A stretch of 64,000 nt of DNA from Naegleria gruberi (GCA_000004985.1 GG738866.1), one strand, 5' to 3'. Numbered from the stretch's first letter, positions 1,628-25,039 are shown. A program made the numbers and translations. The notes: generated by a model from the letters alone, not told the origin.

Positions 1628-2803
1628 TCAATAAATAAAGTTGTAATACTTGTTTGTTGCAAGTTCTGGTATTTCCTTCAATAGGTCATTCATGTACTTT
1701 CTATTATTCAAATATTTAGGAGCTATAAATTTTTCCAATGACAGATTTTCCTTACACACTTGGTATGCCTTAACGAGTGACATTTTGAAAATTTCCTCAT
1801 CTTCTCTAAACCAAAAAGGAATCTCATAGATATATTTTGTTTTTTGAATGCATCTCTTAACAATTTCTTCATCCTTTCTAAACTCATAAGGAACAAGGAA
1901 TAGTGGCAAATTCATTCCAACTAATTGATATACCAATTCTCTATTTTCTCTCATTACTTTTGGAAGTTCAGAATAGGCAAAGTAGTTTCTCCTAACAACT
2001 TCCTTAACAAATGAGAAATCATGTTGCAATCTCTCACTAATATATCCAACATTATTTGGAGAGGAAATACATGCTGATAGAGCAATCTGTCTATCATCGA
2101 GCATTTCCTTAGGAAGTTTGTAATATAATATTTTCAATTCTCGAATTTTCACATACAATTCCACAACTTGCTTATCATTTAAATATATTTCTGGAAGTTT
2201 GAATTCAAAATTATGGAAATATGAACTAACACTCTTCAGTACTCTCATTACAATATCTCGATCATTCTTCATTTCATCTGAAAACAATTTATAACATCTC
2301 GGACAAGATGTCACAGCTTTAAGACACACCCTCTTATCCTTCTTCAATTCATCACTCAAATGTACATAAAAGTAACCAAATTGTGAAACTGCTCTAATAG
2401 CAATTCGAATACTATTTCTCAATCGTTCAGAAATTTGCAAAAAAGTGTTTTCACACCTAATAAACCTCAACATGTGCCAAGCCACCAACTCATTATCCAC
2501 ATATTCTTTCGGAATCGTATAGTATCGAGGTAATTTCTTATAAGTATGCTTTCGGAATGATTTTAAAAATTCATACGATTTCTCATAATCATGCAAAAAT
2601 CGTTCCGATGCTTGTTTCCAAATGTTTTTCAATAGATTGGAAAGATTATCTGAATCAGAATGTGTATACTCATCATGATCATTTTTATTTGATCGGGTTG
2701 TGGTGGTGGTGGTGGTGGGCGGTGATGGGAGAAAATCATAGAGAATGAGTTGGACCATTTTTTTTTGTAATGCAACTCGAATTTGCACTTTATATTGTGT
2801 CAA
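1628..2803 (-). CDS. DUF4116-like repeat protein (divergent)
   Basis: 391-aa ORF with repeated L..D+.I...A.....N..Y.S..L+.D..FV units (SDELKKDKRVCLKAV, SDEMKNDRDIVMRVL, LPKEMLDDRQIALSAC...ISERLQHDFSFVKEVV). Family call made from memory of the DUF4116 periodicity. Confidence 0.5.
   Translation of the reverse strand: MTQYKVQIRVALQKKMVQLILYDFLPSPPTTTTTTTRSNKNDHDEYTHSDSDNLSNLLKNIWKQASERFLHDYEKSYEFLKSFRKHTYKKLPRYYTIPKEYVDNELVAWHMLRFIRCENTFLQISERLRNSIRIAIRAVSQFGYFYVHLSDELKKDKRVCLKAVTSCPRCYKLFSDEMKNDRDIVMRVLKSVSSYFHNFEFKLPEIYLNDKQVVELYVKIRELKILYYKLPKEMLDDRQIALSACISSPNNVGYISERLQHDFSFVKEVVRRNYFAYSELPKVMRENRELVYQLVGMNLPLFLVPYEFRKDEEIVKRCIQKTKYIYEIPFWFREDEEIFKMSLVKAYQVCKENLSLEKFIAPKYLNNRKYMNDLLKEIPELATNKYYNFIY
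2698..2721. repeat. (GGT)n / (ACC)n microsatellite encoding a Thr7 run in the minus-strand gene
   Basis: ggtggtggtggtggtggtggg on the plus strand, translated as PTTTTTTT in the 1628..2803(-) protein. Confidence 0.8.
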
Positions 2804-3118: not shown

Positions 3119-4043
3119 ATGAAACAAGATCAATGCACTGTTGCTCCTTCACCATCATCCTTGTGTGAAAGTGGTGGATTGTTTCCTGCAGAAATTTGGG
3201 TCCACATTCTTTCCTATCTACCTTCACCGTATATTCCGAATAGTGAGAATAATTCCGATCAAGAATTCAGAAAACAAGTTTTGGAATGGAATCAACTGAG
3301 AGAGAAATCATCCTCTATTTATTATGCTTGTAAATTTGCTATAATGGAGATGGATTTATCTTCATGGTTTCGTATGGATTTGAAAGAAATTGAGACGGCT
3401 TCCAAGTCAATTATACTACCTGGAGTAAAGAGAATAACTTATGAGGAAAATTTTCAAAAGAGATTTTCCAAAGAGAAAGGAGTTAATCCAATTTAATGCA
3501 ACTCAAATGGGTAAGATAATGATGAGACAGGAAAGTGCGTTTCAAATTATCTTGAATGGATTGGCTAATGGTTTTGCAAATGTGAAAAAGTTAAATCTCG
3601 ATGGATGGTACTTTTTGAAAGAGGAAGAATTGCAGAAAATTTGTGAAAATTTGAAATGTTTGGAGAGTTTATCCATTGTCAAATGTCAGAGAATTAGGGA
3701 TTTGGAATTGAGTAAGATTTCTAATCTGAATAATTTGAGAATTCACATCAATCAAATCAAATTAAGAATTAATATTGAAAGGAAAACAAGACAACAAAAT
3801 TTCAACATTGATATAGTTGATGGATTTTCCTTATTTTTCAAAACTTTGGATGGTTTTGGATTTTCAGAGCAATATCATTATTTATACTTTATTAAGGATA
3901 TGAAACCCTTATTGGAAAAGAGAATGGGAGTTTCATGGGAGAAGATTCGGTTCATCTTTGCTGGAAAGGAAATTGAGAATGAAAGAAGATTTGCTGATTA
4001 CTGTGTCTGCAAGGATAGTACCGTGCACGTTATTAAAAGGTAG
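3119..4043 (+). CDS. F-box-like / leucine-rich-repeat protein with C-terminal ubiquitin-like domain; putative 49-nt intron 3482..3530
   Basis: N-terminus AEIWVHILSYLPSP is F-box-like. The middle has LRR-type L..L.L...-L units. The C-terminus KIRFIFAGKEIENERRFADYCVCKDSTVHVIKR aligns to the second half of ubiquitin ([31 protein letters not shown]). Two ORFs in frames 2 and 0 overlap at 3441..3496. The only in-frame GT..AG join is GTTAAT...GACAG at 3482..3530 (length = 1 mod 3). Confidence 0.5.
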
Positions 4044-4148: not shown

Positions 4149-6099
4149 ATGAACTCCCATATCACCACTCTCATTCTCGTCGATTTCAAAATTGACACGA
4201 TCAACAACCAACTGCACAACTTGTTGAGGAATAAATTTTCCAATCAACAAAAAGGAAGACTTGTCTATTTAGAAAACAGAGAAAAATCATACAATTTTAT
4301 TCCGATAGAATTTACCAGAGATTTGGCATTTGTTTTGAAAATATTGGAAAGATTGAACGAGTATAATTCGTGTTGTACATTTGAAGAGTTGCTCAATCAT
4401 ATTCCGAATGGAATTTTACAAAATCCCAAAAGTTATTGCAAAATTATGTCAAATTTACATTGAAAAGTTTGGTTGTTTGGGAAATCAGTGGAATAATTTC
4501 ACACAATTATTTGCAAATAATAGAGAAATGGTCCTTGAAATTCTCAAATTGAATCCAAGTGCACTTCGATTTGTGTCGGCTGAATTTCAGAATGATTATG
4601 AGATTGTAATGACTGCTGTGAAAGTGAATGGATTTTCATTGAAATATGCTTCAGATATATTGAAGGGAAATAGACAAGTTGTAACTCAAGCTGTGATGAC
4701 TGATGGATTTGCACTTGATTTTGCATCTAGTGAATTGATGAATGATATAGATTTACAGAAAATGGCTATTCGAAACAATCCTAATATGTTTTCATGTCTT
4801 GTGAACAAGCTAACCATTTTTGAAATTGAAAATGAAGTTCTTGAACTTGCTCTTCATTTACATGGAAAATCCCTAGCTCTAATTCCAAACACTTTTCACA
4901 ATTACAGAGATCTTGTTTTACTAGCTGTCAAGAATGATGGTAAAGCTCTTTCACATGCCACAGAAACTTTGAAAGCAGATAGAGAAATTGTATGGGAAGC
5001 TGTATCTCAGAATGGCTTTGCATTATTCTATGCCTCTCCTGAACTCAAGAAGGATAGAGAAATTATTCTAAAAGCTCTAGAAACTTCGAGCACTTGCTAC
5101 CTCTCCTTGCCGATTGATTTTCAAGAAGATTTGGAAATTATTCAGCAAACTCTTCGGTATTTCCCCAATGCTCTTCAATTTATTCGTTCCACAAATTTGG
5201 ATATCCAATTCCTCACTTCTGTGGTAGAGAAAAATCCTCTCCTACTTAAGTATGCGTCTAGAGTGCGTAAGGATAAGAATTTAGTATTGAAATCAGTTGA
5301 ATTGGATGGCAATAATCTTCAGTATGCTGATTCGGAATTGAGACAAGATCCTGAATTGATCTTGAAAGCAGCTCAGCAAAATATTAAATCACTCGTATTT
5401 GCCAAAAATATGGGAAAGGAGCTCTTAATAGAGTTATCTGAAATGAATGGATTTTTACTTGATTATGTATGGAATCAACTTGGAGAATTAAAGACAGACA
5501 GAGATTTTATAATAGCCTGTCTCAAAAGAAATGGAAGGAACTTTATAGTTCTCGATCAATCAATGAGGGATGATAGAGAAATACTCAATATTGCATTAGA
5601 AACTTTTGGAACAGCCCTATACTATTCTGATAAGAGGTTTAGATATGAGTATGAGATGGTAAAGAAGGCGGTTCGAGATAGTCCCGATATTCATACCTCC
5701 ATTCCACGAGTTGTTATTGACAGAGAAATTGTCAAAACGATTCTTTCTGTAAAGGGGATTTTGTTTCATGAATTTTACAGGTTTAATAATGATATTGAGC
5801 TTGTCATGACAGCCGTCAAACAAAATGGGAAGAGTTTTAAATATGCCAGTGAAAATATAGTAAGGGATCCAGAGGTGCAGACGCTAGTTGTAAAAGAAAG
5901 TGGGTTTTGCTTTCAACCAAATGCAGAACTATTTCAATCACGAATGGAACATTGTTACTTTGGTGCTTATCAATATGAACATTTACCATTCTATCCATTC
6001 AATAATTATCCAATGGAATATTTCTACAGTTACAACACATACAATTCAGAAGTTAGATTACCAGATTACAGTGAACTTTTAAAACCTTTACAAAAATAA
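4149..6099 (+). CDS. large DUF4116-like repeat protein (~16 repeat units), probably one short intron near 4372-4432
   Basis: At least 15 tandem units of the type FQNDYEIVMTAVKVNGFSLKYASDILKGNRQVV. ORFs 4149..4463 and 4381..6099 overlap in different frames. GT..AG spans 4372..4432 (61 nt) or 4375..4432 (58 nt) join them in frame. Confidence 0.55.
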
Positions 6100-10930: not shown

Positions 10931-12058
10931 ATGTTTCATTCCATCTTCTCATATTTGTGGTGGATTTTCCCAACCCGATCCGAAAATCTTTATGCATCTT
11001 TATTGAAGAATAGCATTGATGAGAATGACTTCAAAGCAGGAATATTGGAAAGTCTCTCATTGGATATTGTGATCGAGATTATATCCTTTCTCGATCGGTT
11101 TGAATTTATCAGATTGTTTTCAGGAGTGAATAAATCCTTCTATTCATTAACAGAGGATAAAAGATTCTGGTTAATATTAGACCGTCATGATGAGAAAATT
11201 CCTACTGTTACACAACCAAATTCAAACTTCCAACCAATACTATGTTTTTCAAGAATTGAAGAATATCTCAAATCTTCTGAAAAGACAAGTTTCAAAACCA
11301 TTTACAAGAACCTTCTCCTCTCCCCTACCCCACACGAATTGAATCCAGTCTTTAAAAATCGTTCTGCAATTTATAATGTTGACACAGATCTCATTCCTGA
11401 AACAAAGAAATATATTGCCCTCTTTGGACAATCAAATTCTGGAAAATATTCTCTGGGAATTTGCTCTACGAGAGGTTATTCAAGGCCTAGTGATCAGAAG
11501 AGTGTTATCAAGATGGATTTCTTCTTCAAAAGAGTACTGATCAAGATGGAAAATCTATCCTCTCATCATAATGGAAATATTAGTGGAATATGCCATACGA
11601 ATTTTGTAATTGAATGTTTTGGACATCCTGATTTTCATTTGAAATTTAGAAATAATGGAATGGTTAGCATGAATAGTTTATCACTGGGTAGTAGTCTTTC
11701 AATCATGTTTACAATTGATTTATCAGTGAAAAATAATTATTTTCTCTCTGATTTATCCAAAATTTTGAATCCTTTATTTCAAGTTGATATTTCCAAAGAT
11801 TCTCCTCAGAAAATTAGAAAGAAAATGGGTAATAATAGACTCTGTATAATTGGAACCAAGAGTGATATTAGACAATTGAGTGAACAATCTCTGGCAAGTC
11901 AACTGATGAAAGTTATTGACACAAGTTGTGAATTTTGGGATCAATCCATCATTTACATTGAAACAAGTTCCAAAAATCGTGAAAATATGGATCATCCCTA
12001 TCTATTCTTTTCTCAATCCAACATTCATTCCCAAATCCAACCAAACTCATCCCTGTAA
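10931..12058 (+). CDS. F-box-like protein fused to a degenerate Ras-superfamily GTPase-like domain
   Basis: F-box-like LDIVIEIISFLDRFEFIRLF...FW. Downstream are G1-like ALFGQSNSGKYSL, G3-region ECFGHPDF, G4-like IIGTKSD (NKxD with N to T) and G5-like ETSSKN. The order and spacing match a small GTPase. Confidence 0.45.
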   Translation: MFHSIFSYLWWIFPTRSENLYASLLKNSIDENDFKAGILESLSLDIVIEIISFLDRFEFIRLFSGVNKSFYSLTEDKRFWLILDRHDEKIPTVTQPNSNFQPILCFSRIEEYLKSSEKTSFKTIYKNLLLSPTPHELNPVFKNRSAIYNVDTDLIPETKKYIALFGQSNSGKYSLGICSTRGYSRPSDQKSVIKMDFFFKRVLIKMENLSSHHNGNISGICHTNFVIECFGHPDFHLKFRNNGMVSMNSLSLGSSLSIMFTIDLSVKNNYFLSDLSKILNPLFQVDISKDSPQKIRKKMGNNRLCIIGTKSDIRQLSEQSLASQLMKVIDTSCEFWDQSIIYIETSSKNRENMDHPYLFFSQSNIHSQIQPNSSL

Positions 12059-12329
12059 ATATAATCATCACTCCACAATCTCTTGGAATTCAATTTAACC
12101 TTAAGATTTTATCAGAAACTAACTCCCAACCAATCCAGTTATCAACTCCAACCCCTCAAAAACTCCAAAAATCCAATACTACTACCACCATCACCACTTT
12201 TTACAATATTCTTTTGTGTTCACACAAAACGCGAAAATTTCTCGCTCTCTTGAAGTTTCACGATTTTCAAAAGGTTGAAAAATTGTAGGCGCCTTCCGCT
12301 ATTGGCAAAAAGAATCAAAGAATAAAAAA

Positions 12330-14213
12330 ATGGCTTCATATCATGACGAAGAGGAGGATGATAATGTTGCTACCAAGTTACTTGTACCGACATCAGGTGG
12401 AAGTGGTACTACTAACACTGAAAGTTTGAATAAACAATCTGAAAATTCAGTAATGATGGGAAGTGGTGGTAATCAATCATCGTATGGTACTACTGGATAT
12501 GGTACTGGTAAAGGTGTTGAAAATGATGGTGGTGCTGGTGATGGTGAGACCAGGCTCTGCTACTTATTATGATGATGAGGCTATAAAACAAGTTTCACGA
12601 AAGAAGATTACTTGGAGACAAGTTTTTGATTTTTCTAAAAAGTGGTTGGCTCTTATTGTGGGTTGTTTGATGATGTTAGTTTCGGGAACACAATATACAT
12701 ATTCATCAATTAGTCCAACAATCAAGAGGTAGGTTAATTTTCAACATTTGTGTGTGAATAATTCCATTTTTCTAATTATGATATGATGAAATATTTGGGT
12801 TTAACAATTATTGGTGTGAAAACTAACATGCTACAGAACTTTGGACTATTCACAGACTGAGGTCACAACTATTGCAGCTTTTGCAAATCTTGGAACTTAT
12901 TTCAGTTTGCCAATTTCTCTGGTGAATGACTTTTTCGGAGCAAGAGTTTGTTCCATCGTTTCGGCATTCCTCTTCTTTGCAGGATACTTTTTATTTTTAC
13001 TCTTATATACTGGAATCATGCCAAATCACTACCTTGTGGCTGGTCTCTTCTTTATGATTATGGGTAGTGGTTCAGCTGGAGGTTATTTGGCTTCAATTTC
13101 AACAAATTTGAAGAACTTTTCAGAGAAGAATAGAGGATTGGTTGTTGGTGTGTTGGCTTCATGCTTTGGATTGTCAAGTTTCGTCTTTTCATCAATTTAT
13201 ACCTATGTCTTTTCAGGAGAATTGGAAGGATACTTGTATTTCACAGCAATTTTTGGAACTGTTGTCATTTTCTCTGGATGTATTTTCATGAATTCTATTG
13301 CAAAGAAGGAGGAACCTAAAAAGGAGGCAGAAAAAACTCTCTTGCCACCACCACAGGAAGAAATTCAAGATCAACAACAAGAGGAAGGTGCAGTTGTGAC
13401 CTATGAGGAAGCAGCTGAACCACAAGTAGAAAAGAAGGTATATGCTGATATTAGTGCAAACAAGTCATTGGAACCTCCAGTTAATAATCCTTTTGGAATG
13501 CTCATGACTCTGGACTTTTATATAATGTTTATTGTGTACATGATTGGATCAGGATGTGGTTTGGTTATTATCAACAATTTGGGAGCTATTGTCATTGCTT
13601 ATGGAGGTTACAATGGTCAACAAAATTTGATGGTTCAATTATTGTCAATCTTGTAAGTTTGAATAATTGATTGGATTTAACTGAATTATGATAATTTAGC
13701 AATTGTCTTGGAAGAATTGCGTTTGGATTTTTGAGTGATAAATTCCTTCTTCCAAAGTATCACCTTACCAGAGTTACCTTTTTCAATATTGCTGTATTGA
13801 TGATGGGTGTTATGCACTTTATTTTTGCTTGGGCTCCAGTCAATTCATTGTACTTTTTCATTTGTGTAATGGGTTTCTTCAATGGTGGTATTTTCTCACT
13901 TGCACCAAGTTTCTGTTCTGAAAGATTTGGAGCTAAATATTTTGGTATGAACTTTTCAATTATGAATTTGGCAGCTGCTTGTGGAAGTTATGGATTGGCA
14001 ACATTTGTCACTGGTCAATTATATCAAATTAATATTGATGCACCAAGAACTACCACATGTCATGGCCATGACTGCTTCCAATTGACATTCTTTATCACAT
14101 CATCATTGTGTGGTTTTGCTTTCATTCTAGGATTATTTTTACAATATAGAACGAGATGGGTGTATTGGATTTTCTTCAGAAGAAGAATTACCCAATCCAA
14201 GAAACAAGTTTAA
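12330..14213 (+). CDS. nodulin-like major-facilitator-superfamily transporter, 4 exons (12330..12543, 12593..12728, 12837..13652, 13700..14213)
   Basis: About 12 predicted TM helices and the GTQYTYSSIS nodulin-like N-terminal motif. Introns are 12544..12592 (49 nt, GTGAGA..AG), 12729..12836 (108 nt, GTAGGT..CAG) and 13653..13699 (47 nt, GTAAGT..TAG). Each joins overlapping ORFs in frame. Confidence 0.65.
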
Positions 14214-14242
14214 TCTCATTAAATTTAACTTATTTTTCCAAT

Positions 14243-14969
14243 TTATTTTCCAAATATCAGTTTTTCAATTAGAAAATTCCACAAAATTCCAAACAGAGTT
14301 ATTGAATTATCATTTCGAATATCCACACTTGTCGGCGATGATATCGATCCTGATCCAGTTGATGAAAAATCTTGCATCATCATGGTCGAATTGACAATTG
14401 TTCCATTCAAATTTCCAGAATCCATTCCCTCTGATTTTGAATCAGAAATATAAACTCCCAAGAAGAGAGCCATTGCCACCAAAATTGCACACGTATGCAA
14501 TGTAATAAATGTAAAGAAACCAATGACAAGTCTTTTCCTTGACATTCTCTGTCTTGTAGTAGGTGGTTTGATTCATCATGGAGGATGGATTTTCCTTTCC
14601 CTCCTCCATCATCATGACTAGATGATTACTATCTGAAAAGGAAACACCTGAAACTGATGATTTGGATGGTTCATTCGAATAATAATTTGCAATATCAATG
14701 TGATGATCGTGGGAATTTTGATCCAATTGTTGTTGATGGTGAATTTGAAGTGGAGGAATTGATGGCAGTTGTATACTTATTGGATTCGGAGAAGTTTCCA
14801 AGTCTTGTCCATGTTTCGAATATGATTGTGTATCAGAAAATGGTTGTTGTAAGAAAATTGAATCATTAGTTGGAGGTGAAAATGGAGAACATGCAACAAT
14901 ATTATTAAACCTTTCGTGAGGTTCACCACTTGGTGATGCTGTCAACGCAATTGTTGTTGGTTTTGACAT
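14243..14969 (-). CDS. small Ser/Pro/Gln-rich protein with one C-terminal TM helix; two overlapping ORFs, junction unresolved
   Basis: ORF 14969..14442 (Q/S/P-rich) and ORF 14545..14243 (MSRKRLVIGFFTFITLHTCAILVAMALFLGVYI TM segment) overlap in different frames. The join is a short intron or a frameshift that I could not place. Confidence 0.3.
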
Positions 14970-15764
14970 TCGAATAGTTTCGGGTTAGAAATGTGTTGAG
15001 TTTTTTTCTGCACTTTGTTTTTTAGCTAACAAGTGCAAAGTGACAGATGGGTTTTTTTCTGGTAGTGTTCCACTAAATGGTTCTTTGATGAGTGGAACTA
15101 AGCTTGATGATGATCACGTGATGTGCTGCAAAGTTGTGTGTAATTTTTTTTAAAGTTTCTTTCTTCTACTTTCTGCTAGTTTCCAATAGTTACAATCATG
15201 ACAATCCAGAATGGAAATTCAATGGTTTTCAAATTAGCCGAACAGTCTTTTGCTTGCCATATTTTTTAAATAATTCAATATTTTGGTTTTGTTTGTTCAA
15301 ATTTGGTGGCTTCTTATCTTGTTGATATCATCAAGACTTTACAAAATATTGATAATTGTTCAATGCACAGTTTCAGTTTTAGAAAGTTTGCTTTCGTTCT
15401 CTTTGAACTGGAAGTGTACTTATTGGAAATCAAGTTTAGAATTGAAAATATTTATTGGAAACCACAATCCTGTACGAAACCAAAGATTATTTATGAATTA
15501 AAACATTTTTCTTAATGGAGAGTTGATCTGAAAATAAGGAACTTAACTGCAAATTATTCCATAGCTGGGGGAAACTCTGGTCAAGGTGTTGAATGGTTTC
15601 TGATATTTTTGAAGTTTAGTTTTAATTATTTTAATGTTTCTTTTTAATTGGTTATTGTGGATTCTTTTGGAAATTGGTCGAATTGGGTTTATTATAATAG
15701 CATTTTGAAGTTAAGTTTGTGAAATAGTATTGGAACTAATGAACTTGTCAATTAGTGAAAAAAA

Positions 15765-16795
15765 ATGTCAAAACTTGAAAAACTTTCCTTTCAATTTTTT
15801 GATAAATTACCAGAAGAAATTTTGAGTGAAATTGGGAATTTTCTATTGCTTGGTGAATTTCACAAGTGGATGTTGGTGAATCGAATAGTATATCAGAAAC
15901 TTTGTTCCGATGCTTGTTATTCGAAATTTTATTGGAGGGAAATTAAGTATCATTGCAATGCAGATGAGAAGAAATATGTAATTTACAATCCAGTAACTTT
16001 AGAATATCACTCTAATGTGCATTCACTTTATTCTATTTATGGAAAAGTTTCGTCTAATTTTCGATATCATCTCTTGCAGTTTAAAAAGGAAATTTCGAAT
16101 AACAAACCCAACTTTTCATTCACTCCCATTGAGAACATGATGGAAATCAATCCAAAACTCCAAAAATCATTAGAAAAAGATGAATTTCCAGGATATGGAA
16201 AGATTTGCCTTATTGGAAACTCAACATGTGGCAAAACTTCACTTTATTGGAGAGTTCATACTCGAGAATTTCAAGAAACTTTTTGGTATACTTCAGATAA
16301 TCCCAATTTAGTGTATGAAAATTTTCTGATGTCATTGTGGGACCTTCCCTGTAGAGATGGGTAAGTTTCGTTTTATTTAGAATATTTTGAGATTAATCTC
16401 AATCAAGATATGATCAATTGAGAACTTTGTCGTATCCAGAAGCACACTTGGCTCTCGCTTGCTTTTCACTTGTGGACAGAGATTCATTCGATTCTATTCG
16501 AAACAAGTGGATTCATGAATTGAGATTCCACTTGAAAGATACTCCAATTATTCTGGTTGGTTGTAAACATGATTTAAGAGAAGAAATCATCAAATCATCA
16601 ACACATCAAGATAACCAATCAATTGTAACAAGTGAGGAAGCAGAGGAATTCGCCAAAAGTTTCGGATTTATATCCTATTGGGAGAATTCCTCTAAAAGTG
16701 GATTTGGGATGAAGAATTTTATGGAAATTTTAGTAAATGGGTGCACCTATCAACCGAATATTGTAAAACCAAAGAAAAAGTGTTTAATTCAATAA
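15765..16795 (+). CDS. F-box-like protein fused to a Rho-family pseudo-GTPase ending in a CaaX box; intron 16361..16407
   Basis: N-terminus LPEEILSEIGNFLLLGEF...YW is F-box-like. After removing the 47-nt GTAAGT..CAAG intron the protein reads ICLIGNSTCGKTSL...WDLPCRDGYDQLRTLSYPEAHLALACFSLVDRDSFDSIRNKW...PIILVGCKHDL...ENSSKSG...KKCLIQ*. This is collinear with RhoA (LVIVGDGACGKTCL...WDTAGQEDYDRLRPLSYP...CFS...VGNKKDL...CSAK...CLVL). Switch II DTAGQE is replaced by DLPCRD and NKxD by CKHD. Confidence 0.7.
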
Positions 16796-16880
16796 TAATT
16801 ATTAGAATTTAAATTTATTGTAAACTTGAAATTATTAGAAAGTGTTATTGTTGAACTAGAATCTGGAAAATTCAGAAAAA

Positions 16881-17732
16881 ATGTCACCACACAATGATTA
16901 CACTACCATTCCAATAGAAGAATCAGAGATTAATTTACATTACTCACAAACTAATTCTTCCGAAACATTAAATTCATCATTATTAAATCTCCCGCCAGAA
17001 TTATTAACATTAATTATTGAATATTTATCAAATGATAATGTTGCACTGCTGTCATTCGAATTACTCGGAATAACTGCACGAGAAGTAATGAATAATCAAG
17101 TGTGGGAAAAATTATTTAGAAATCAACAAATTTCGTCCAAGTTTTTGGGTTTCGACTGGTTTATTTTACCGAATCAGTATCTTGTTGAACTGGTCAAGAG
17201 AAAATCAGAAAATCCACACAAAATTGCATTTTATTATCATTTCTACATGAATGGAATTATTACACAATTTCTAGATTATGAAATTTCGGATATAATTTAC
17301 AATTTCAGATATTCGAATAGAAGTAACGTATTTCAAATTGAAAAATCATTAATCCCATTAAGGAAATATTTTGAAGAAATGAATAGGTTTCATTTCTATT
17401 CAAATAGAAGACCAATTAATATTTTACTTTACAAAACTCAATTAGAAATTGAAATGAAACGTTGGATTAATTTCAAGAAGAAACCAGGCGAAATACTTCA
17501 CCAATACCGTCGCCACACCTATACCTCTTGCTTTATCCTCCTAGTAGTAAGCCCAATTATTGGAATTGGCTCTTTAGGAATGATTTTGGTTGGTGGAATT
17601 AGTTTCAAATATCCAACGTTTAATTCAGAACTTGGCGCCATCTCACTCATCATTATTGGATGTTTCATTTTGTTGATATCAGTTGTGGGATTACTTGTTT
17701 CAACCAAGTACATTTGTTCTTACAGAGATTAA
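16881..17732 (+). CDS. F-box-like protein with C-terminal transmembrane anchor (two hydrophobic helices)
   Basis: LNLPPELLTLIIEYLSNDNVALLSF...VWEKLF is F-box-like. The C-terminus has FILLVVSPIIGIGSLGMILVGGISF and ISLIIIGCFILLISVVGLLV hydrophobic segments. Confidence 0.5.
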   Translation: MSPHNDYTTIPIEESEINLHYSQTNSSETLNSSLLNLPPELLTLIIEYLSNDNVALLSFELLGITAREVMNNQVWEKLFRNQQISSKFLGFDWFILPNQYLVELVKRKSENPHKIAFYYHFYMNGIITQFLDYEISDIIYNFRYSNRSNVFQIEKSLIPLRKYFEEMNRFHFYSNRRPINILLYKTQLEIEMKRWINFKKKPGEILHQYRRHTYTSCFILLVVSPIIGIGSLGMILVGGISFKYPTFNSELGAISLIIIGCFILLISVVGLLVSTKYICSYRD

Positions 17733-22605: not shown

Positions 22606-23817
22606 TCACTGGAATAGTTTTTTAAATACATCTATTAATTTTGAAAGCATATGAAGTGAATAATCGAGTAGATCATCGTGCACCTGCTCAATCTTTCTGT
22701 AATTGAAATTTTTTAGATGGGAGAATGAATGTTGAGAAATTGAGCAATGAAATCTACGAATATCATCTGCAGAGCTCAATTCAAATTGTAATTCTCTCAA
22801 ATTCTTGAAAACTTGCTTGCCTATCAGAATTTTAACATGATTCAATCTTAGTAGAACATTTCCAAACCTTAATACTTTTAACTGCTCTAAATTGTCCAAT
22901 TGATTGAGGAAAAGTTCAATAGATGTATAATTATTAGATACATTATATAAATTTTCAAGAGTAATTTCCTTCAATTTGGAAAATTTTGAATTACAAATAG
23001 TTTCCAATATTTGTAAATTAATATGATATGATAACTTCAATATTTCAATATTAGAACACAATTCAGACATTAGAGTATTTACAATTGATAAATCGCTATA
23101 AATATTGGCCAGTGATAATTTTTTAAGGTTTCCAAAATTGGAAAATGTATCTGAATTATTCCATTCATGAATAATACATGAATTCAAAGATAAACTTTCA
23201 ATATTTTTGAAACATTCTTTCTCTGATAATGATGATGAACTAAGCATAAAACTTCCAAGTTCCAGACGTTTTAAACTTGCTAAATAAGGACTATCAAACA
23301 TTTCAATATCGAAATAATGCTCTCCATAAACTTCATCTGAAATTATCAAAGTTTCAAGATTTTTCATTCGACTTCCAACAATCAATTCAATTCCGCACAT
23401 TGGATTTCTCCAATATTGATCATATGGATCGTGTGTTCTTAATTCCAAATAGTTCAATTCGAAAGTTTCAACAATCATTTTCAACAGTTTCGTATGAGTT
23501 GAATATCCAATGATTGTAACTCCTCTCACATTTCTACAATTCTCTCCTTTCAATTTTTCAATCCACTTATCGACAATTCTTTCGTCAACATCTTGTACTT
23601 CGCTATCGAACCAAACATACGAATCTTCCACATTAATCGTTAAAAACAGTGGAATTTTCAAAGAATGTGAGTACCAATTCTTATTCACACGATTACAATT
23701 TTTCAAAATTTGCTCTCCGCTCATGTAATTTAATATTAAATTTAATATTAAATCATCAAAAATTGCATCACCGGATTCAGGTGAACATTTCATGATGTAT
23801 GTTTTCATTTTTTCCAT
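22606..23817 (-). CDS. F-box-like / leucine-rich-repeat protein
   Basis: N-terminal FDDLILNLILNYMSGEQILKNCNRVNKNWY is F-box-like. The C-terminal half has LRRs (LKRLELGSF, IESLSLNSC, LKKLSLANI, IEILKLSYHINL, LKEITLENL). Confidence 0.6.
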   Translation of the reverse strand: MEKMKTYIMKCSPESGDAIFDDLILNLILNYMSGEQILKNCNRVNKNWYSHSLKIPLFLTINVEDSYVWFDSEVQDVDERIVDKWIEKLKGENCRNVRGVTIIGYSTHTKLLKMIVETFELNYLELRTHDPYDQYWRNPMCGIELIVGSRMKNLETLIISDEVYGEHYFDIEMFDSPYLASLKRLELGSFMLSSSSLSEKECFKNIESLSLNSCIIHEWNNSDTFSNFGNLKKLSLANIYSDLSIVNTLMSELCSNIEILKLSYHINLQILETICNSKFSKLKEITLENLYNVSNNYTSIELFLNQLDNLEQLKVLRFGNVLLRLNHVKILIGKQVFKNLRELQFELSSADDIRRFHCSISQHSFSHLKNFNYRKIEQVHDDLLDYSLHMLSKLIDVFKKLFQ

Positions 23818-23881: not shown

Positions 23882-25039
23882 TTAATCACTGAAACATACA
23901 CTAGCGTGATATTCATAGAATTGATAAAGAACTACTTCGAAGGGATTTTCCATATTGTTGGGATTGACAATTAAGGAAATAATATAGCTATCAATGGCAT
24001 CACCTAAAAGTTGTGAATTGAAGGATCGTTCAACTTTCATAAATGTTGTGTAACTTGTAATGTTTGGATCTTCATTCCATTTCGCCTTTGTATTTTCATT
24101 AAATTCGTCCAAAATTTCCAAAGTGTTCAAGTTATAAGGACAACATTCAGCAATGTTATCGTAAAATGTAATTCGATGAAGATCATGCACATAGTAATTG
24201 ATTCGAAATAGAAAGTTCAACATCATTTGAAGAAGGTATTGATTGTGTAAAATTCCACATTCATGACATGTCAAAACTAGTTCTCTAATCCAATGAATGA
24301 AATTTTTAGCACCTTTCATTTGGTTTCCATTGGAAGGGGCAACTTCAAATTGATTATACGAAAGGCAAATTACATTTCTCACTAAATTGTGTTCGTATGA
24401 AGTGTCATCATTGGGGATGCCAACGAGCTCTGTACAATTCTCATTATGGTAGAAACCCTCTTCCAACTTTTGAATGAGAATATATTCAGAACGATTCTTT
24501 TTGTTTCTTCCTGTAAACAGTTGGTCAGCTGAGGAAAATTTTAATCCCAAATGATTACTATATCCTTCGTCATCACATTCCTGATGCCAAACCATTGAAT
24601 AATCTGCAAAATAATTTAAATTACCTATCTCTACATCCTTAGAATTATTCCTCTTGGTCACATTAATGCAATCACAAAGTATCCACTTGCTCATTTGAAA
24701 AATCTTATCATTTTCTATATTGAATGAAGGTTTACATTTGTAAAACTTGAATTCATAACGAGGAATCATCATTCCTTCATTAATAGCTGCAACACATTTA
24801 GAAAGAAACACAATAAATGGCATTGCACGTTGGTAATCAATCAAATGATGATCAATCTTCAAGTTTTCTGAGTGAGAATTATTCAAACTCTTGTTTAAAT
24901 GTTGAAAGTACAAATAAAAGTGTTTTGTAATTAAATCTCTCCATTCTGTGCACACGAATTTGCAATTTAAAATTTGTTTCCATGATAAATAGCCATCAAA
25001 TAGAATGGTCAGCAGAATGTCCTGATTGTTGGCTATCAT
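23882..25039 (-). CDS. F-box-like domain protein with unknown C-terminal domain
   Basis: DILLTILFDGYLSWKQILNCKFVCTEWRDLI at the N-terminus. The remaining ~330 aa is Cys/His/aromatic-rich with no match I can name. Confidence 0.45.
   Translation of the reverse strand: MIANNQDILLTILFDGYLSWKQILNCKFVCTEWRDLITKHFYLYFQHLNKSLNNSHSENLKIDHHLIDYQRAMPFIVFLSKCVAAINEGMMIPRYEFKFYKCKPSFNIENDKIFQMSKWILCDCINVTKRNNSKDVEIGNLNYFADYSMVWHQECDDEGYSNHLGLKFSSADQLFTGRNKKNRSEYILIQKLEEGFYHNENCTELVGIPNDDTSYEHNLVRNVICLSYNQFEVAPSNGNQMKGAKNFIHWIRELVLTCHECGILHNQYLLQMMLNFLFRINYYVHDLHRITFYDNIAECCPYNLNTLEILDEFNENTKAKWNEDPNITSYTTFMKVERSFNSQLLGDAIDSYIISLIVNPNNMENPFEVVLYQFYEYHASVCFSD

What the first reader, a model, noticed from the sequence alone, without database searches (positions are those of the whole stretch)
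10931..16795. F-box domain fused to Rho/Ras-like pseudo-GTPases: a possible SCF counterpart of RhoBTB
Two nearby genes (10931..12058 and 15765..16795) start with an F-box-like motif and continue into a small-GTPase fold. After removing a 47-nt intron, the second gene is collinear with RhoA from the P-loop to a C-terminal CaaX box (CLIQ). Its catalytic signatures are altered: switch II DTAGQE is replaced by DLPCRD (the catalytic Gln is lost), and NKxD by CKHD. The first copy is more degenerate. A GTPase fold coupled to a cullin adaptor is known from RhoBTB (Rho plus BTB, Cul3). Swapping BTB for F-box (Cul1) is an architecture I do not recognise as described. The nucleotide-binding residues are degenerate, so the Rho fold may serve as a prenylated, membrane-targeted substrate-recognition module. 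Alternatively, GTP binding could gate SCF assembly.
Basis: partly seen in the sequence, partly recalled or inferred. Interest (0 to 1): 0.75.

Follow-up and report, generated by a model that had tools for sequence, protein, structure and literature searches.

The report
Naegleria F-box–GTPase fusion genes, already catalogued
Both genes really do join an F-box (a ubiquitin-ligase docking module) to a small-GTPase domain, but this design was already reported for this amoeba, Naegleria gruberi, in 2021, and one of the two genes is listed there residue for residue.

Summary
The window is Naegleria gruberi NEG-M.

**Gene 2** (15765..16360 + 16408..16795, 47-nt GT..AG intron) encodes a 327-aa protein:
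- It has a firm Rho-family G domain and a CaaX box (CLIQ).
- Switch II is degenerate: DLPCRD in place of DTAGQE.
- Its N-terminus fails Pfam F-box. It is nonetheless homologous along its whole length to paralogues whose F-box passes Pfam, and the family's N-terminal profile hits F-box proteins in the PDB.

**Gene 1** (10931..12058) has a Pfam-significant F-box and a strongly degenerate G domain. That domain resembles Naegleria's divergent F-box Rab-like clade more than Rho.

**The novelty claim fails.**
- Herman et al. 2021 (BMC Biol 19:142, supplement) state that F-box is the most frequent extra domain on Naegleria Rab, Rho, Ran and Gα GTPases, and they propose GTPase-dependent ubiquitination.
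- Their Table S8 contains the exact gene 2 protein, with the same intron, as a corrected "Rac" model.
- TbFRP of trypanosomes is an earlier F-box–GTPase.

**Corrections and additions.**
- CKHD is not a defect; fungal Rho1 uses CKxD.
- Gene 2 is under purifying selection (dN/dS about 0.12 against a related strain).
- Gene 1 is absent from the published table. It has a metagenomic homologue with the same degenerate motifs.

SCF-adaptor function remains untested.

The parts
10931..12058 (+). Gene 1 CDS (375 aa; XP_002677508.1 / EFC44764.1 / UniProt D2VEA6, annotated 'F-box domain-containing protein'): an F-box plus a degenerate Rab-like G domain, with no CaaX box
   Evidence: Single ORF. Exact match to the N. 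gruberi protein. Not listed in Table S8 of Herman 2021.
11045..11170 (+). Gene 1 F-box (residues 39-80, LESLSLDIVIEIISFLD...KRFW)
   Evidence: Pfam PF00646, E 5e-5, 23.5 bits against a cut-off of 20.5. Conserved in homologue P0067, whose F-box scores 30.1 bits.
11426..11449 (+). Gene 1 P-loop-like motif GQSNSGKY (GxxxxGK followed by Tyr where Ser/Thr is expected)
   Evidence: Aligns to the P-loop of the F-box-Rac and F-box Rab-like profiles. P0067 has GIEKSGKF at the same place.
11612..11626 (+). Gene 1 probable G3 remnant ECFGH (ExxG in place of DxxG)
   Evidence: hhalign places it opposite the 'Wd~~g~~rf' of the Rab-like clade. 'EC.G' is conserved in P0067. An earlier MAFFT run put G3 at IDLSV instead, so the assignment is tentative.
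11855..11974 (+). Gene 1 G4 (TKSD, 11855..11866) to G5 (TSSK, 11963..11974)
   Evidence: This is the stretch that Pfam Ras, the F-box-Rac HMM and hhalign all align. 'GTKSD' and 'IIYIETS[SA]K' are identical in P0067.
15765..16360 (+). Gene 2 exon 1 (residues 1-198 plus two bases of codon 199)
   Evidence: ORF listed. Splice model. Identical to the corrected XP_002677510.1 model in the published Table S8.
16361..16407 (+). Gene 2 intron, 47 nt, GTAAGT...AG
   Evidence: Removal restores the frame; only this register gives GT..AG. Length and splice sites are conserved in the related-strain contig L001, with 1 substitution and no indel. The published curated model uses the same junction. No transcript data were available here.
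16408..16795 (+). Gene 2 exon 2 (residues 199-327 plus the stop codon)
   Evidence: F-box-Rac profile scores 142.8 bits on this ORF.
15795..15935 (+). Gene 2 F-box-like module (residues 11-57, FFDKLPEEILSEIGNFL...KFYW)
   Evidence: No Pfam hit. Against a family N-terminal profile built without gene 2 and without its closest paralogue, residues 1-70 score 19.8 bits; the best of 1000 shuffles scores 9.2. The region aligns with the F-box of XP_002676320.1, which scores 23.7 bits in Pfam. The family N-terminal profile hits FBXO3, Skp2, KDM2A/B, beta-TrCP and other F-box proteins in the PDB.
16053..16097 (+). Family-specific linker motif SNFRYHLLQFKKEIS (consensus N[YF]RxxLxxxK) between the F-box and the G domain
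   Evidence: Conserved column block in alignment A1. It contributes to the 51-bit score of the gene 2 N-terminus against the leave-out profile. Function unknown.
16200..16735 (+). Gene 2 Rho-type G domain (residues 146-308; interrupted by the intron)
   Evidence: Pfam Ras, E 2.9e-25. Best PDB matches are Rho1, Rac1, Cdc42 and RhoA. Alignment to Rho1 shows at most a one-residue gap across the Rho-insert region.
16215..16238 (+). Gene 2 P-loop GNSTCGKT (GxxxxGKT intact; Ser at the position of Rac/Ras Gly12)
   Evidence: Read from the sequence; alignments.
16341..16358 (+). Gene 2 degenerate switch II, DLPCRD in place of DTAGQE (the A59, G60 and Q61 equivalents are all changed)
   Evidence: The same residues are present in the related strain (P0001 ends ...WDLPCRDG).
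16562..16573 (+). Gene 2 G4 motif CKHD
   Evidence: Same CKxD form as fungal Rho1 structures and most family members. It is not a degeneration.
16766..16792 (+). Gene 2 polybasic stretch KPKKK plus CaaX box CLIQ
   Evidence: The Cys is invariant across the 12-member family alignment. By the general CaaX rule, X = Q points to farnesylation (established knowledge, not tested here).

Best explanation
Both genes belong to Naegleria-specific expansions of Ras-superfamily GTPases that carry an N-terminal F-box.

Gene 2 is the curated 'Rac' XP_002677510.1. Its layout is F-box, then a family-specific N[YF]R linker, then a Rho-type G domain, a polybasic stretch and a CaaX box. Gene 1 (XP_002677508.1) is a highly diverged relative of the F-box Rab-like clade and has no lipid anchor.

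Proposed mechanism (inferred, not shown):
- The F-box docks Skp1-Cul1-Rbx1.
- The G domain supplies the partner- or substrate-binding surface.
- The protein therefore acts as an SCF substrate receptor. For gene 2 this would occur at a membrane, through a farnesylated C-terminus.

Predicted nucleotide behaviour of gene 2:
- It keeps the nucleotide-binding motifs G1 (GxxxxGKT), G4 (CKHD) and G5 (SSK).
- It has lost the Gly12, Ala59, Gly60 and Gln61 equivalents.
- It should therefore hold nucleotide but neither hydrolyse it nor switch normally. That makes it a constitutive module, like the atypical Rho proteins, rather than a cycling one.

Gene 1 and its homologue keep G4 and G5 but have GK[Y/F] in the P-loop, which suggests a pseudo-GTPase.
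For: Shown:
- The organism and both genes are identified.
- Gene 2 has a Rho-type G domain.
- Gene 2 is 43% identical over residues 12-327 (E 1e-80) to XP_002676320.1, which has a Pfam-positive F-box, DTAGQ, CKYD and CLIQ.
- The family's N-terminal profile hits F-box proteins in 35 of 38 PDB matches, and 9 of 13 members hit PF00646.
- The leave-out profile test supports the gene 2 N-terminus.
- Gene 2 is under purifying selection against a strain 97.7% identical in DNA: 10 synonymous and 5 non-synonymous changes, dN/dS 0.12, binomial p 8.5e-5. The coding sequence diverges 1.5-1.8%, the flanks 4.7-5.2%.
- DLPCRDG is retained in that strain.
- The CaaX Cys is invariant in the family.
- Gene 1 has a Pfam F-box and a full-length homologue, P0067 (34% identity), with the same motif blocks.
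- hhalign to the Rab-like F-box clade gives probability 97.9% over 271 columns.

The published inference of GTPase-dependent ubiquitination comes from Herman et al. 2021.
Against: - No experiment or structure supports Skp1 binding, prenylation or nucleotide binding for either protein.
- The gene 2 F-box is below Pfam detection. Most of the family has LN or LS where the canonical F-box has LP.
- Both structure predictions were unusable, with pLDDT 31.7 and 44.5.
- The selection test rests on only 15 substitutions.
- The family affiliation of gene 1 is not clean. An F-box-Rac HMM scores it at 27.7 bits, while an HMM of the Rab-like clade gives only two weak stretches of 3-4 bits. Profile-profile comparison and the whole-library hits point the other way.
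- Presence of Skp1 and Cul1 in N. gruberi was assumed from general knowledge and not checked here.
Confidence: 0.55

Rival explanations
1. The F-box works in cis as a turnover handle. It brings the GTPase itself to SCF, or drives autoubiquitination, so that the level of a Rho or Rab-like signal is kept low or pulsed. On this view the G domain is the regulated cargo, not a substrate receptor.
For: This role was proposed for the F-box of TbFRP, which turns over and is cleaved rapidly (PMC3593210). F-box proteins are commonly autoubiquitinated (established knowledge). Several family members keep a canonical DTAGQ and look like working switches.
Against: In gene 2 and gene 1 the catalytic and switch residues are lost, so there is little cycling signal left to tune. 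Nothing in the sequence separates this reading from the receptor model.
Confidence: 0.25
2. The N-terminal modules descend from F-boxes but no longer bind Skp1. They act as a helical targeting, dimerisation or autoinhibitory extension of an atypical GTPase.
For: Gene 2 gives no Pfam F-box hit. Many family members lack the conserved Pro of the LPxE motif. The conserved N[YF]R linker points to a family-specific function beyond Skp1 docking.
Against: Gene 2 itself keeps LPEEIL..I..FL. Nine of 13 N-termini hit PF00646 at E<=1, and gene 1 and the closest paralogue of gene 2 score above the Pfam cut-off. The profile aligns to the Skp1-binding F-box of Skp2 and FBXO3.
Confidence: 0.15
3. Gene 1 is a decaying relic of the birth-and-death evolution described for these clades. 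It is not a functional protein.
For: It has almost no detectable relatives: only itself in the word-indexed search, and 4 other hits among 1.84 billion representatives. Its G motifs are degenerate. It is absent from the curated GTPase table. Herman et al. note pseudogenes in these clades.
Against: The 375-codon ORF is intact. Homologue P0067 shares 34% identity along the full length, and the conservation is concentrated in the F-box, P-loop, G4, G5 and C-terminal blocks. That pattern indicates constraint rather than drift.
Confidence: 0.1

Closest known systems
Naegleria F-box-Rac/Rho proteins (Herman et al. 2021, BMC Biol 19:142, Additional Files 4 and 10)
   Same: Gene 2 is one of them. The exact sequence is listed as a corrected 'Rac' model. 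It shares the F-box, N[YF]R linker, Rho G domain and CaaX layout with 11 aligned paralogues.
   Different: The published row for gene 2 carries no F-box flag. Its switch II is DLPCRD, whereas its closest paralogue keeps DTAGQ.
Naegleria divergent F-box Rab-like subgroups (same paper)
   Same: Gene 1 plus P0067 align along the full length to this clade. Matching blocks are the F-box, the P-loop, 'FCFDLS'-type beta4, 'LGxKxD', 'YFELSSK' and the C-terminal '[FH]P[FY]x[FY]'. Two library hits to gene 1 (P0068, P0069) are related to each other; P0069 has an F-box plus WDTAG..RF, TIGLEF and YYRG motifs and aligns with this clade.
   Different: Gene 1 is not in the published table. It has lost the Rab-type switch motifs, has GKY in the P-loop, and carries an insertion of about 25 residues that P0067 lacks.
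RhoBTB (Rho domain plus tandem BTB; Cul3 adaptor)
   Same: A Rho-type, GTPase-deficient G domain is fused to a cullin-adaptor module. The analogy is functional (established knowledge of RhoBTB; cited by Herman et al.).
   Different: Neither gene has a BTB domain. The adaptor sits at the N-terminus and is of the Skp1/Cul1 type. Gene 2 has a CaaX box. N. gruberi also has separate true RhoBTB genes.
TbFRP (FYVE-F-box-Ras-like GTPase of Euglenozoa; Adung'a & Field 2013, PMC3593210)
   Same: An F-box lies upstream of a Ras-superfamily G domain in a discoban protist. A link to ubiquitylation and turnover was proposed.
   Different: TbFRP has a FYVE domain that binds PI3P for membrane targeting, where gene 2 has a CaaX box. 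The authors found no orthologue in N. gruberi. The G domains belong to different subfamilies.
Rab40 (Rab plus SOCS box; Cul5 adaptor) and FBXL2 (F-box/LRR protein with a CaaX box)
   Same: Rab40 is another GTPase fused to a cullin-adaptor motif (own knowledge). FBXL2 shows that a prenylated, membrane-targeted F-box receptor exists; prenylation of FBL2 is predicted in PMC1847700.
   Different: Rab40 uses a C-terminal SOCS box, and FBXL2 uses LRRs as its receptor. Neither combines an F-box with a G domain.

Membership tests
Rho family GTPase (gene 2) | Ras-superfamily G domain that matches Rho, Rac and Cdc42 better than other subfamilies | tested here: met
   Pfam Ras scores 89.2 bits against a cut-off of 21.6. 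The 60 best PDB sequences shown are all Rho-family proteins, E 1e-27 to 1e-22.
Rho family GTPase (gene 2) | Rho insert between G4 and G5 | tested here: met
   At most a one-residue gap against Rho1 across DLREEIIKSSTHQDNQSIVTSEE. Length is comparable to Rac1 and RhoA in the alignment.
Rho family GTPase (gene 2) | Catalytic switch II motif DxxGQ | tested here: not met
   The motif is DLPCR; both the Gly and the Gln are replaced. The protein is therefore a Rho-family member by descent but not a canonical cycling GTPase.
Rho family GTPase (gene 2) | G1 GxxxxGK[ST], G4 [NTC]KxD, and a C-terminal CaaX box | tested here: met
   GNSTCGKT, CKHD (the form found in fungal Rho1) and CLIQ.
F-box domain (PF00646) | Score above the Pfam gathering threshold | tested here: met
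   Gene 1: 23.5 bits against 20.5, E 5e-5.
F-box domain (PF00646) | Score above the Pfam gathering threshold (gene 2) | tested here: not met
   No F-box family is reported for gene 2, even at E<=10 or E<=1 for the N-terminus alone.
F-box domain (PF00646) | Homology of the gene 2 N-terminus to proven F-box sequences through family profiles | tested here: met
   The leave-out profile scores 51 bits on residues 1-145 and 19.8 bits on residues 1-70; shuffles reach at most 9.6. The family profile hits FBXO3 (E 7.8e-7) and Skp2 (E 1.2e-4). The region aligns to the Pfam-positive F-box of XP_002676320.1.
F-box domain (PF00646) | Binds Skp1 | not testable with these tools
   This needs a binding assay or a confident complex model. 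Both AF2 models were unusable.
Naegleria F-box-Rac family (Herman 2021, Table S8) | Listed in the curated N. gruberi Ras-superfamily table | tested here: met
   Gene 2: exact 327-aa string under 'Rac', XP_002677510.1*. Gene 1 (XP_002677508) is not listed.
Naegleria F-box Rab-like clade (gene 1) | Full-length collinear homology, from the F-box through the G domain to the C-terminal motif | tested here: met
   hhalign probability 97.9%, E 4.1e-13, 271 columns. Against the F-box-Rac family only the F-box aligns.
Naegleria F-box Rab-like clade (gene 1) | Rab-type switch motifs (TIGxEF, WDTAGQERF, YYRG) | tested here: not met
   Gene 1 has ECFGH and no recognisable RabF motifs. A single-clade HMM gives only two weak stretches of 3-4 bits. 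It resembles the clade, but membership is not proven.
RhoBTB | Tandem BTB domains C-terminal to the Rho domain | tested here: not met
   No BTB family appears in the Pfam scans of either protein. Gene 2 ends at the CaaX box immediately after the G domain.
TbFRP | N-terminal FYVE domain | tested here: not met
   No FYVE hit. The authors also report no N. gruberi orthologue.

The most novel reading that the evidence does not exclude
The Naegleria F-box-GTPase fusions, including these two, could be working SCF substrate receptors in which the G domain is the recognition module. Members with intact motifs would be gated by nucleotide state, and members such as gene 2 and gene 1 would be locked. 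That would be a large, lineage-specific class of ubiquitin ligases built on GTPase domains. Gene 1 and P0067 would define a conserved pseudo-GTPase branch that the published catalogue missed. The idea is already in print as a one-sentence inference, but no one has tested it.
Probability: 0.4. Interest if true: 0.55.

Novelty: already known. Interest (0 to 1): 0.22.

Why it matters
If the fusions work as proposed, Naegleria would couple dozens of GTPase domains directly to Cul1 ligases. That would be a natural test bed for nucleotide-gated or membrane-anchored protein degradation, and a parallel to RhoBTB-Cul3 and Rab40-Cul5.

The architecture and this inference are already published for this organism, so this window adds only details:
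- evidence that the unflagged N-terminus of gene 2 is an F-box;
- evidence that gene 2 is under selection despite its broken switch II;
- one uncatalogued degenerate member (gene 1), which has an environmental homologue.

Tried and rejected
- **AlphaFold2 on gene 1** (single sequence): pLDDT 31.7.
- **AlphaFold2 on the gene 2 N-terminus** (3-row alignment): pLDDT 44.5. Neither model was usable, so no fold search was run.
- **Word-indexed homologue search.** Three runs failed to return N. gruberi's own paralogues. Family members were therefore taken from the published table and analysed locally.
- **First MAFFT alignment.** It placed gene 1's G3 at IDLSV. I rejected this after the P0067 alignment and hhalign showed that block to be the beta4 'FCFDLS' region, with ECFG the likelier G3.
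- **Gene 1 as a Rho-type relative of gene 2 or a tandem duplicate.** Rejected. Pairwise BLASTP gives E 0.16, and only the F-box aligns to the Rac family profile.
- **CKHD as a loss of function.** Rejected.
- **N. fowleri orthologue of gene 2.** String searches of Table S8 for WDLPC, KCLIQ and QCLIQ matched only the two N. gruberi proteins, gene 2 and XP_002676320.1. Rows that give an accession without a sequence cannot be excluded.
- **Literature search for Naegleria Skp1 or cullin.** Nothing useful came back.
- **Other GTPase ORFs.** None was found in the window.

Full report
**Source and setting.** The window is AT-rich (about 33% GC) eukaryotic DNA with short GT..AG introns. Exact look-ups identify it as Naegleria gruberi NEG-M. 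The ORF at 10931..12058 equals XP_002677508.1 / EFC44764.1 (UniProt D2VEA6, 'F-box domain-containing protein'). The upstream ORF equals ribosomal protein S10, XP_002677507.1. Both lie on a 469,335-bp contig. Between the two genes of the finding lie a nodulin-like/MFS transporter gene with introns (12330..14213, +) and a minus-strand ORF. No other GTPase ORF is present in the 64 kb.

**Checking the observation, gene 2.** Removing 16361..16407 (GTAAGT...AG, 47 nt) joins 15765..16360 to 16408..16795 in frame and gives 327 aa.
- Pfam Ras matches residues 146-308 at E 2.9e-25.
- The 60 best PDB sequences shown are all Rho1, Rac, Cdc42, RhoA or RhoD, with E down to 1.2e-27. The alignment to Rho1 shows at most a one-residue gap across the Rho-insert region.
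- One claim needs correcting. CKxD is the normal G4 of fungal Rho1 ('vgckkdlr', 'vgckvdlr'), and it is the majority form in this Naegleria family. It is not evidence of decay.
- The real departures from a working switch are Ser at the Gly12 position and the changes at the Ala59, Gly60 and Gln61 equivalents. The effector loop is also shortened and divergent, and the closest paralogue shares that feature.

**Is the gene 2 N-terminus an F-box?** Pfam says nothing, even at E<=10. Other evidence supports it.
- Gene 2 is 43% identical over residues 12-327 (E 1e-80) to the paralogue XP_002676320.1. That protein's aligned N-terminus scores 23.7 bits on PF00646, above the cut-off of 20.5.
- I aligned 12 family members taken from the published table (A1) and their N-termini plus gene 1 (A2).
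- The N-terminal profile finds F-box proteins in 35 of 38 PDB matches, among them FBXO3 (E 7.8e-7), Skp2 (E 1.2e-4), KDM2A/B, beta-TrCP, GID2, Cdc4 and FBXW7. Each is aligned at its F-box.
- Nine of the 13 N-termini hit PF00646 at E<=1.
- A profile built without gene 2 and without its closest paralogue scores the gene 2 N-terminus at 51 bits, and residues 1-70 alone at 19.8 bits. The best of 1000 shuffles reach 9.6 and 9.2.
- Gene 2 itself keeps the LPxEIL..I..FL start.
- Downstream of the F-box, the family shares a conserved N[YF]RxxL linker motif of unknown function.

**Checking the observation, gene 1.**
- The F-box is Pfam-significant (residues 39-81, 23.5 bits).
- Pfam Ras is only sub-threshold (15.4 bits, over G4-G5).
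- The word-indexed search found only the protein itself.
- A full HMMER scan of 1.84 billion representatives found four other proteins. P0067 is 331 aa, E 6.9e-19, from a 1,482-bp JGI metagenome contig of 35.8% GC. P0068 and P0069 are related to each other; P0069 has an F-box and a Rab-type G domain with WDTAGDQRF, TIGLEF and YYRG. The fourth is an unrelated ant protein that matches only at the F-box.
- Gene 1 and P0067 are 34% identical along their full length. Identity is concentrated in the F-box, SGK[YF], [ST]RGY, EC.G, DLS..N..F, R[IL]C..GTKSD, and FW...IIYIETS[SA]K.R.N.D.P.L.
- A profile of the two aligns to the Rab-like F-box clade over 271 columns (hhalign probability 97.9%, E 4.1e-13). 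Against the F-box-Rac family only the 41-column F-box aligns.
- Gene 1 also lacks the Rho insert and the CaaX box.
- One discordant result must be stated. An F-box-Rac HMM scores gene 1 at 27.7 bits (shuffles at most 6.9), whereas an HMM of the Rab-like clade gives only two weak stretches of 3-4 bits. I put gene 1's Rab-like affiliation at about 0.7.
- Gene 1 and gene 2 are not recent duplicates of each other (BLASTP E 0.16).

**Prior art.**
- Herman et al. 2021 (PMC8296547), Additional File 4, state that both Naegleria species have many novel GTPase architectures. [quoted passage not shown] - They also describe three divergent Rab-like subgroups with N-terminal F-box extensions, one of which has a CaaX box, evolving by birth and death.
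- Their Table S8 flags 14 N. gruberi 'Rac' rows as F-box, some also with Kelch or BTB, and lists four RhoBTB genes.
- The table contains the exact 327-aa gene 2 protein, with the same splice junction, as the corrected model of XP_002677510.1. That row has no F-box flag. Gene 1's accession is absent from the table.
- TbFRP, a FYVE-F-box-Ras-like GTPase of Euglenozoa, was described earlier still (PMC3593210).

**Is gene 2 functional?** An ENA metagenome contig (L001, 1,804 bp) is 97.7% identical in DNA to 15421..17220.
- Across the gene 2 coding sequence there are 10 synonymous and 5 non-synonymous differences. dN/dS is 0.12. The binomial p is 8.5e-5 against the expected synonymous fraction of 0.19.
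- Exons diverge 1.5-1.8% and the flanks 4.7-5.2%.
- The intron keeps its length and GT..AG. The variant strain keeps WDLPCRDG.
- Gene 2 is thus a maintained gene with a fixed, non-canonical switch II. The sample is small, at 15 changes.
- Degenerate G3 motifs recur in other family members: LIDVS, FIDLS and WDTAIH.

**Mechanism.**
- Shown: the domain composition, the motif states, the conservation and the selection.
- Inferred from established knowledge of F-box proteins, atypical Rho proteins (Rnd, RhoH, RhoBTB) and CaaX rules: the F-box recruits Skp1-Cul1-Rbx1, and the G domain is the partner-binding module. In gene 2 that module probably holds nucleotide (G1, G4 and G5 intact) but neither hydrolyses it nor switches, and it sits on a membrane through a farnesylated CLIQ plus a polybasic patch.
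- Gene 1 and P0067 keep the guanine-specificity motifs but have an aromatic residue where the Mg-binding Ser/Thr should be. That suggests a soluble pseudo-GTPase receptor.
- Rivals: the F-box acts as a cis turnover handle, as proposed for TbFRP. The N-terminus is an ex-F-box that no longer binds Skp1. Gene 1 is a relic.
- None of these rivals can be excluded by sequence alone. Structure prediction gave no usable models.

**Verdict.** Novelty is 'already known' for the architecture and for gene 2. Gene 1 is at most a new, uncatalogued member of a known kind. Interest is low, at 0.22. What remains open is experimental, because nobody has tested whether these fusions assemble SCF ligases.

Noticed in passing
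window 16881..17732 (+): The gene directly downstream of gene 2 (283 aa) has a sub-threshold F-box-like N-terminus ('LLNLPPELLTLIIEYL'; Pfam F-box-like_2 E 0.02, F-box E 0.078) and hydrophobic C-terminal segments. It may be a membrane-anchored F-box protein. Its first 340 nt differ by only 0.9% from the related-strain contig L001.
   Followed up: partly
window 3441..4040 (+): A 200-aa ORF combines an LRR-like segment with a C-terminal ubiquitin-family domain (PF00240, 32.6 bits, above the cut-off). This is another ubiquitin-system fusion in the same window.
   Followed up: no
window 23885..25039 (-) and 22609..23817 (-): Two adjacent ORFs have F-box-like N-termini. The first hits F-box-like at E 2e-4, just below the cut-off. 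The second has only a weak plant-type F-box-associated LRR hit. F-box genes appear to be dense in this genome region.
   Followed up: no
window 1631..2803 (-) and 4381..6096 (+): Two DUF4116 repeat proteins (111.8 and 359.3 bits; 5 and 12 repeats). This domain also appears fused to a Rab5 in the published N. gruberi GTPase table.
   Followed up: no
L002 157..1152 (JGI metagenome 3300002220): P0067 is the closest relative of gene 1 found in 1.84 billion representatives. It comes from a 35.8% GC environmental contig. Its F-box is stronger than gene 1's (30 bits), and it shares the same GK[F/Y] P-loop and the TKSD and IIYIETSAK motifs. The source organism is unknown, presumably a heterolobosean.
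   Followed up: partly
L001 (ENA ERZ929261) = window 15421..17220: A metagenome contig 97.7% identical to this N. gruberi locus shows that a close strain or sister species occurs in an environmental sample. P0029 is likewise a near-identical variant of another N. gruberi F-box-Rac (the ACER01000199 model).
   Followed up: partly
alignment A1 columns about 140-160; gene 2 window 16053..16097: A conserved N[YF]RxxLxxxK motif lies between the F-box and the G domain in all 12 aligned F-box-Rac proteins. The parts of the literature I read do not mention it. Its function is unknown.
   Followed up: partly
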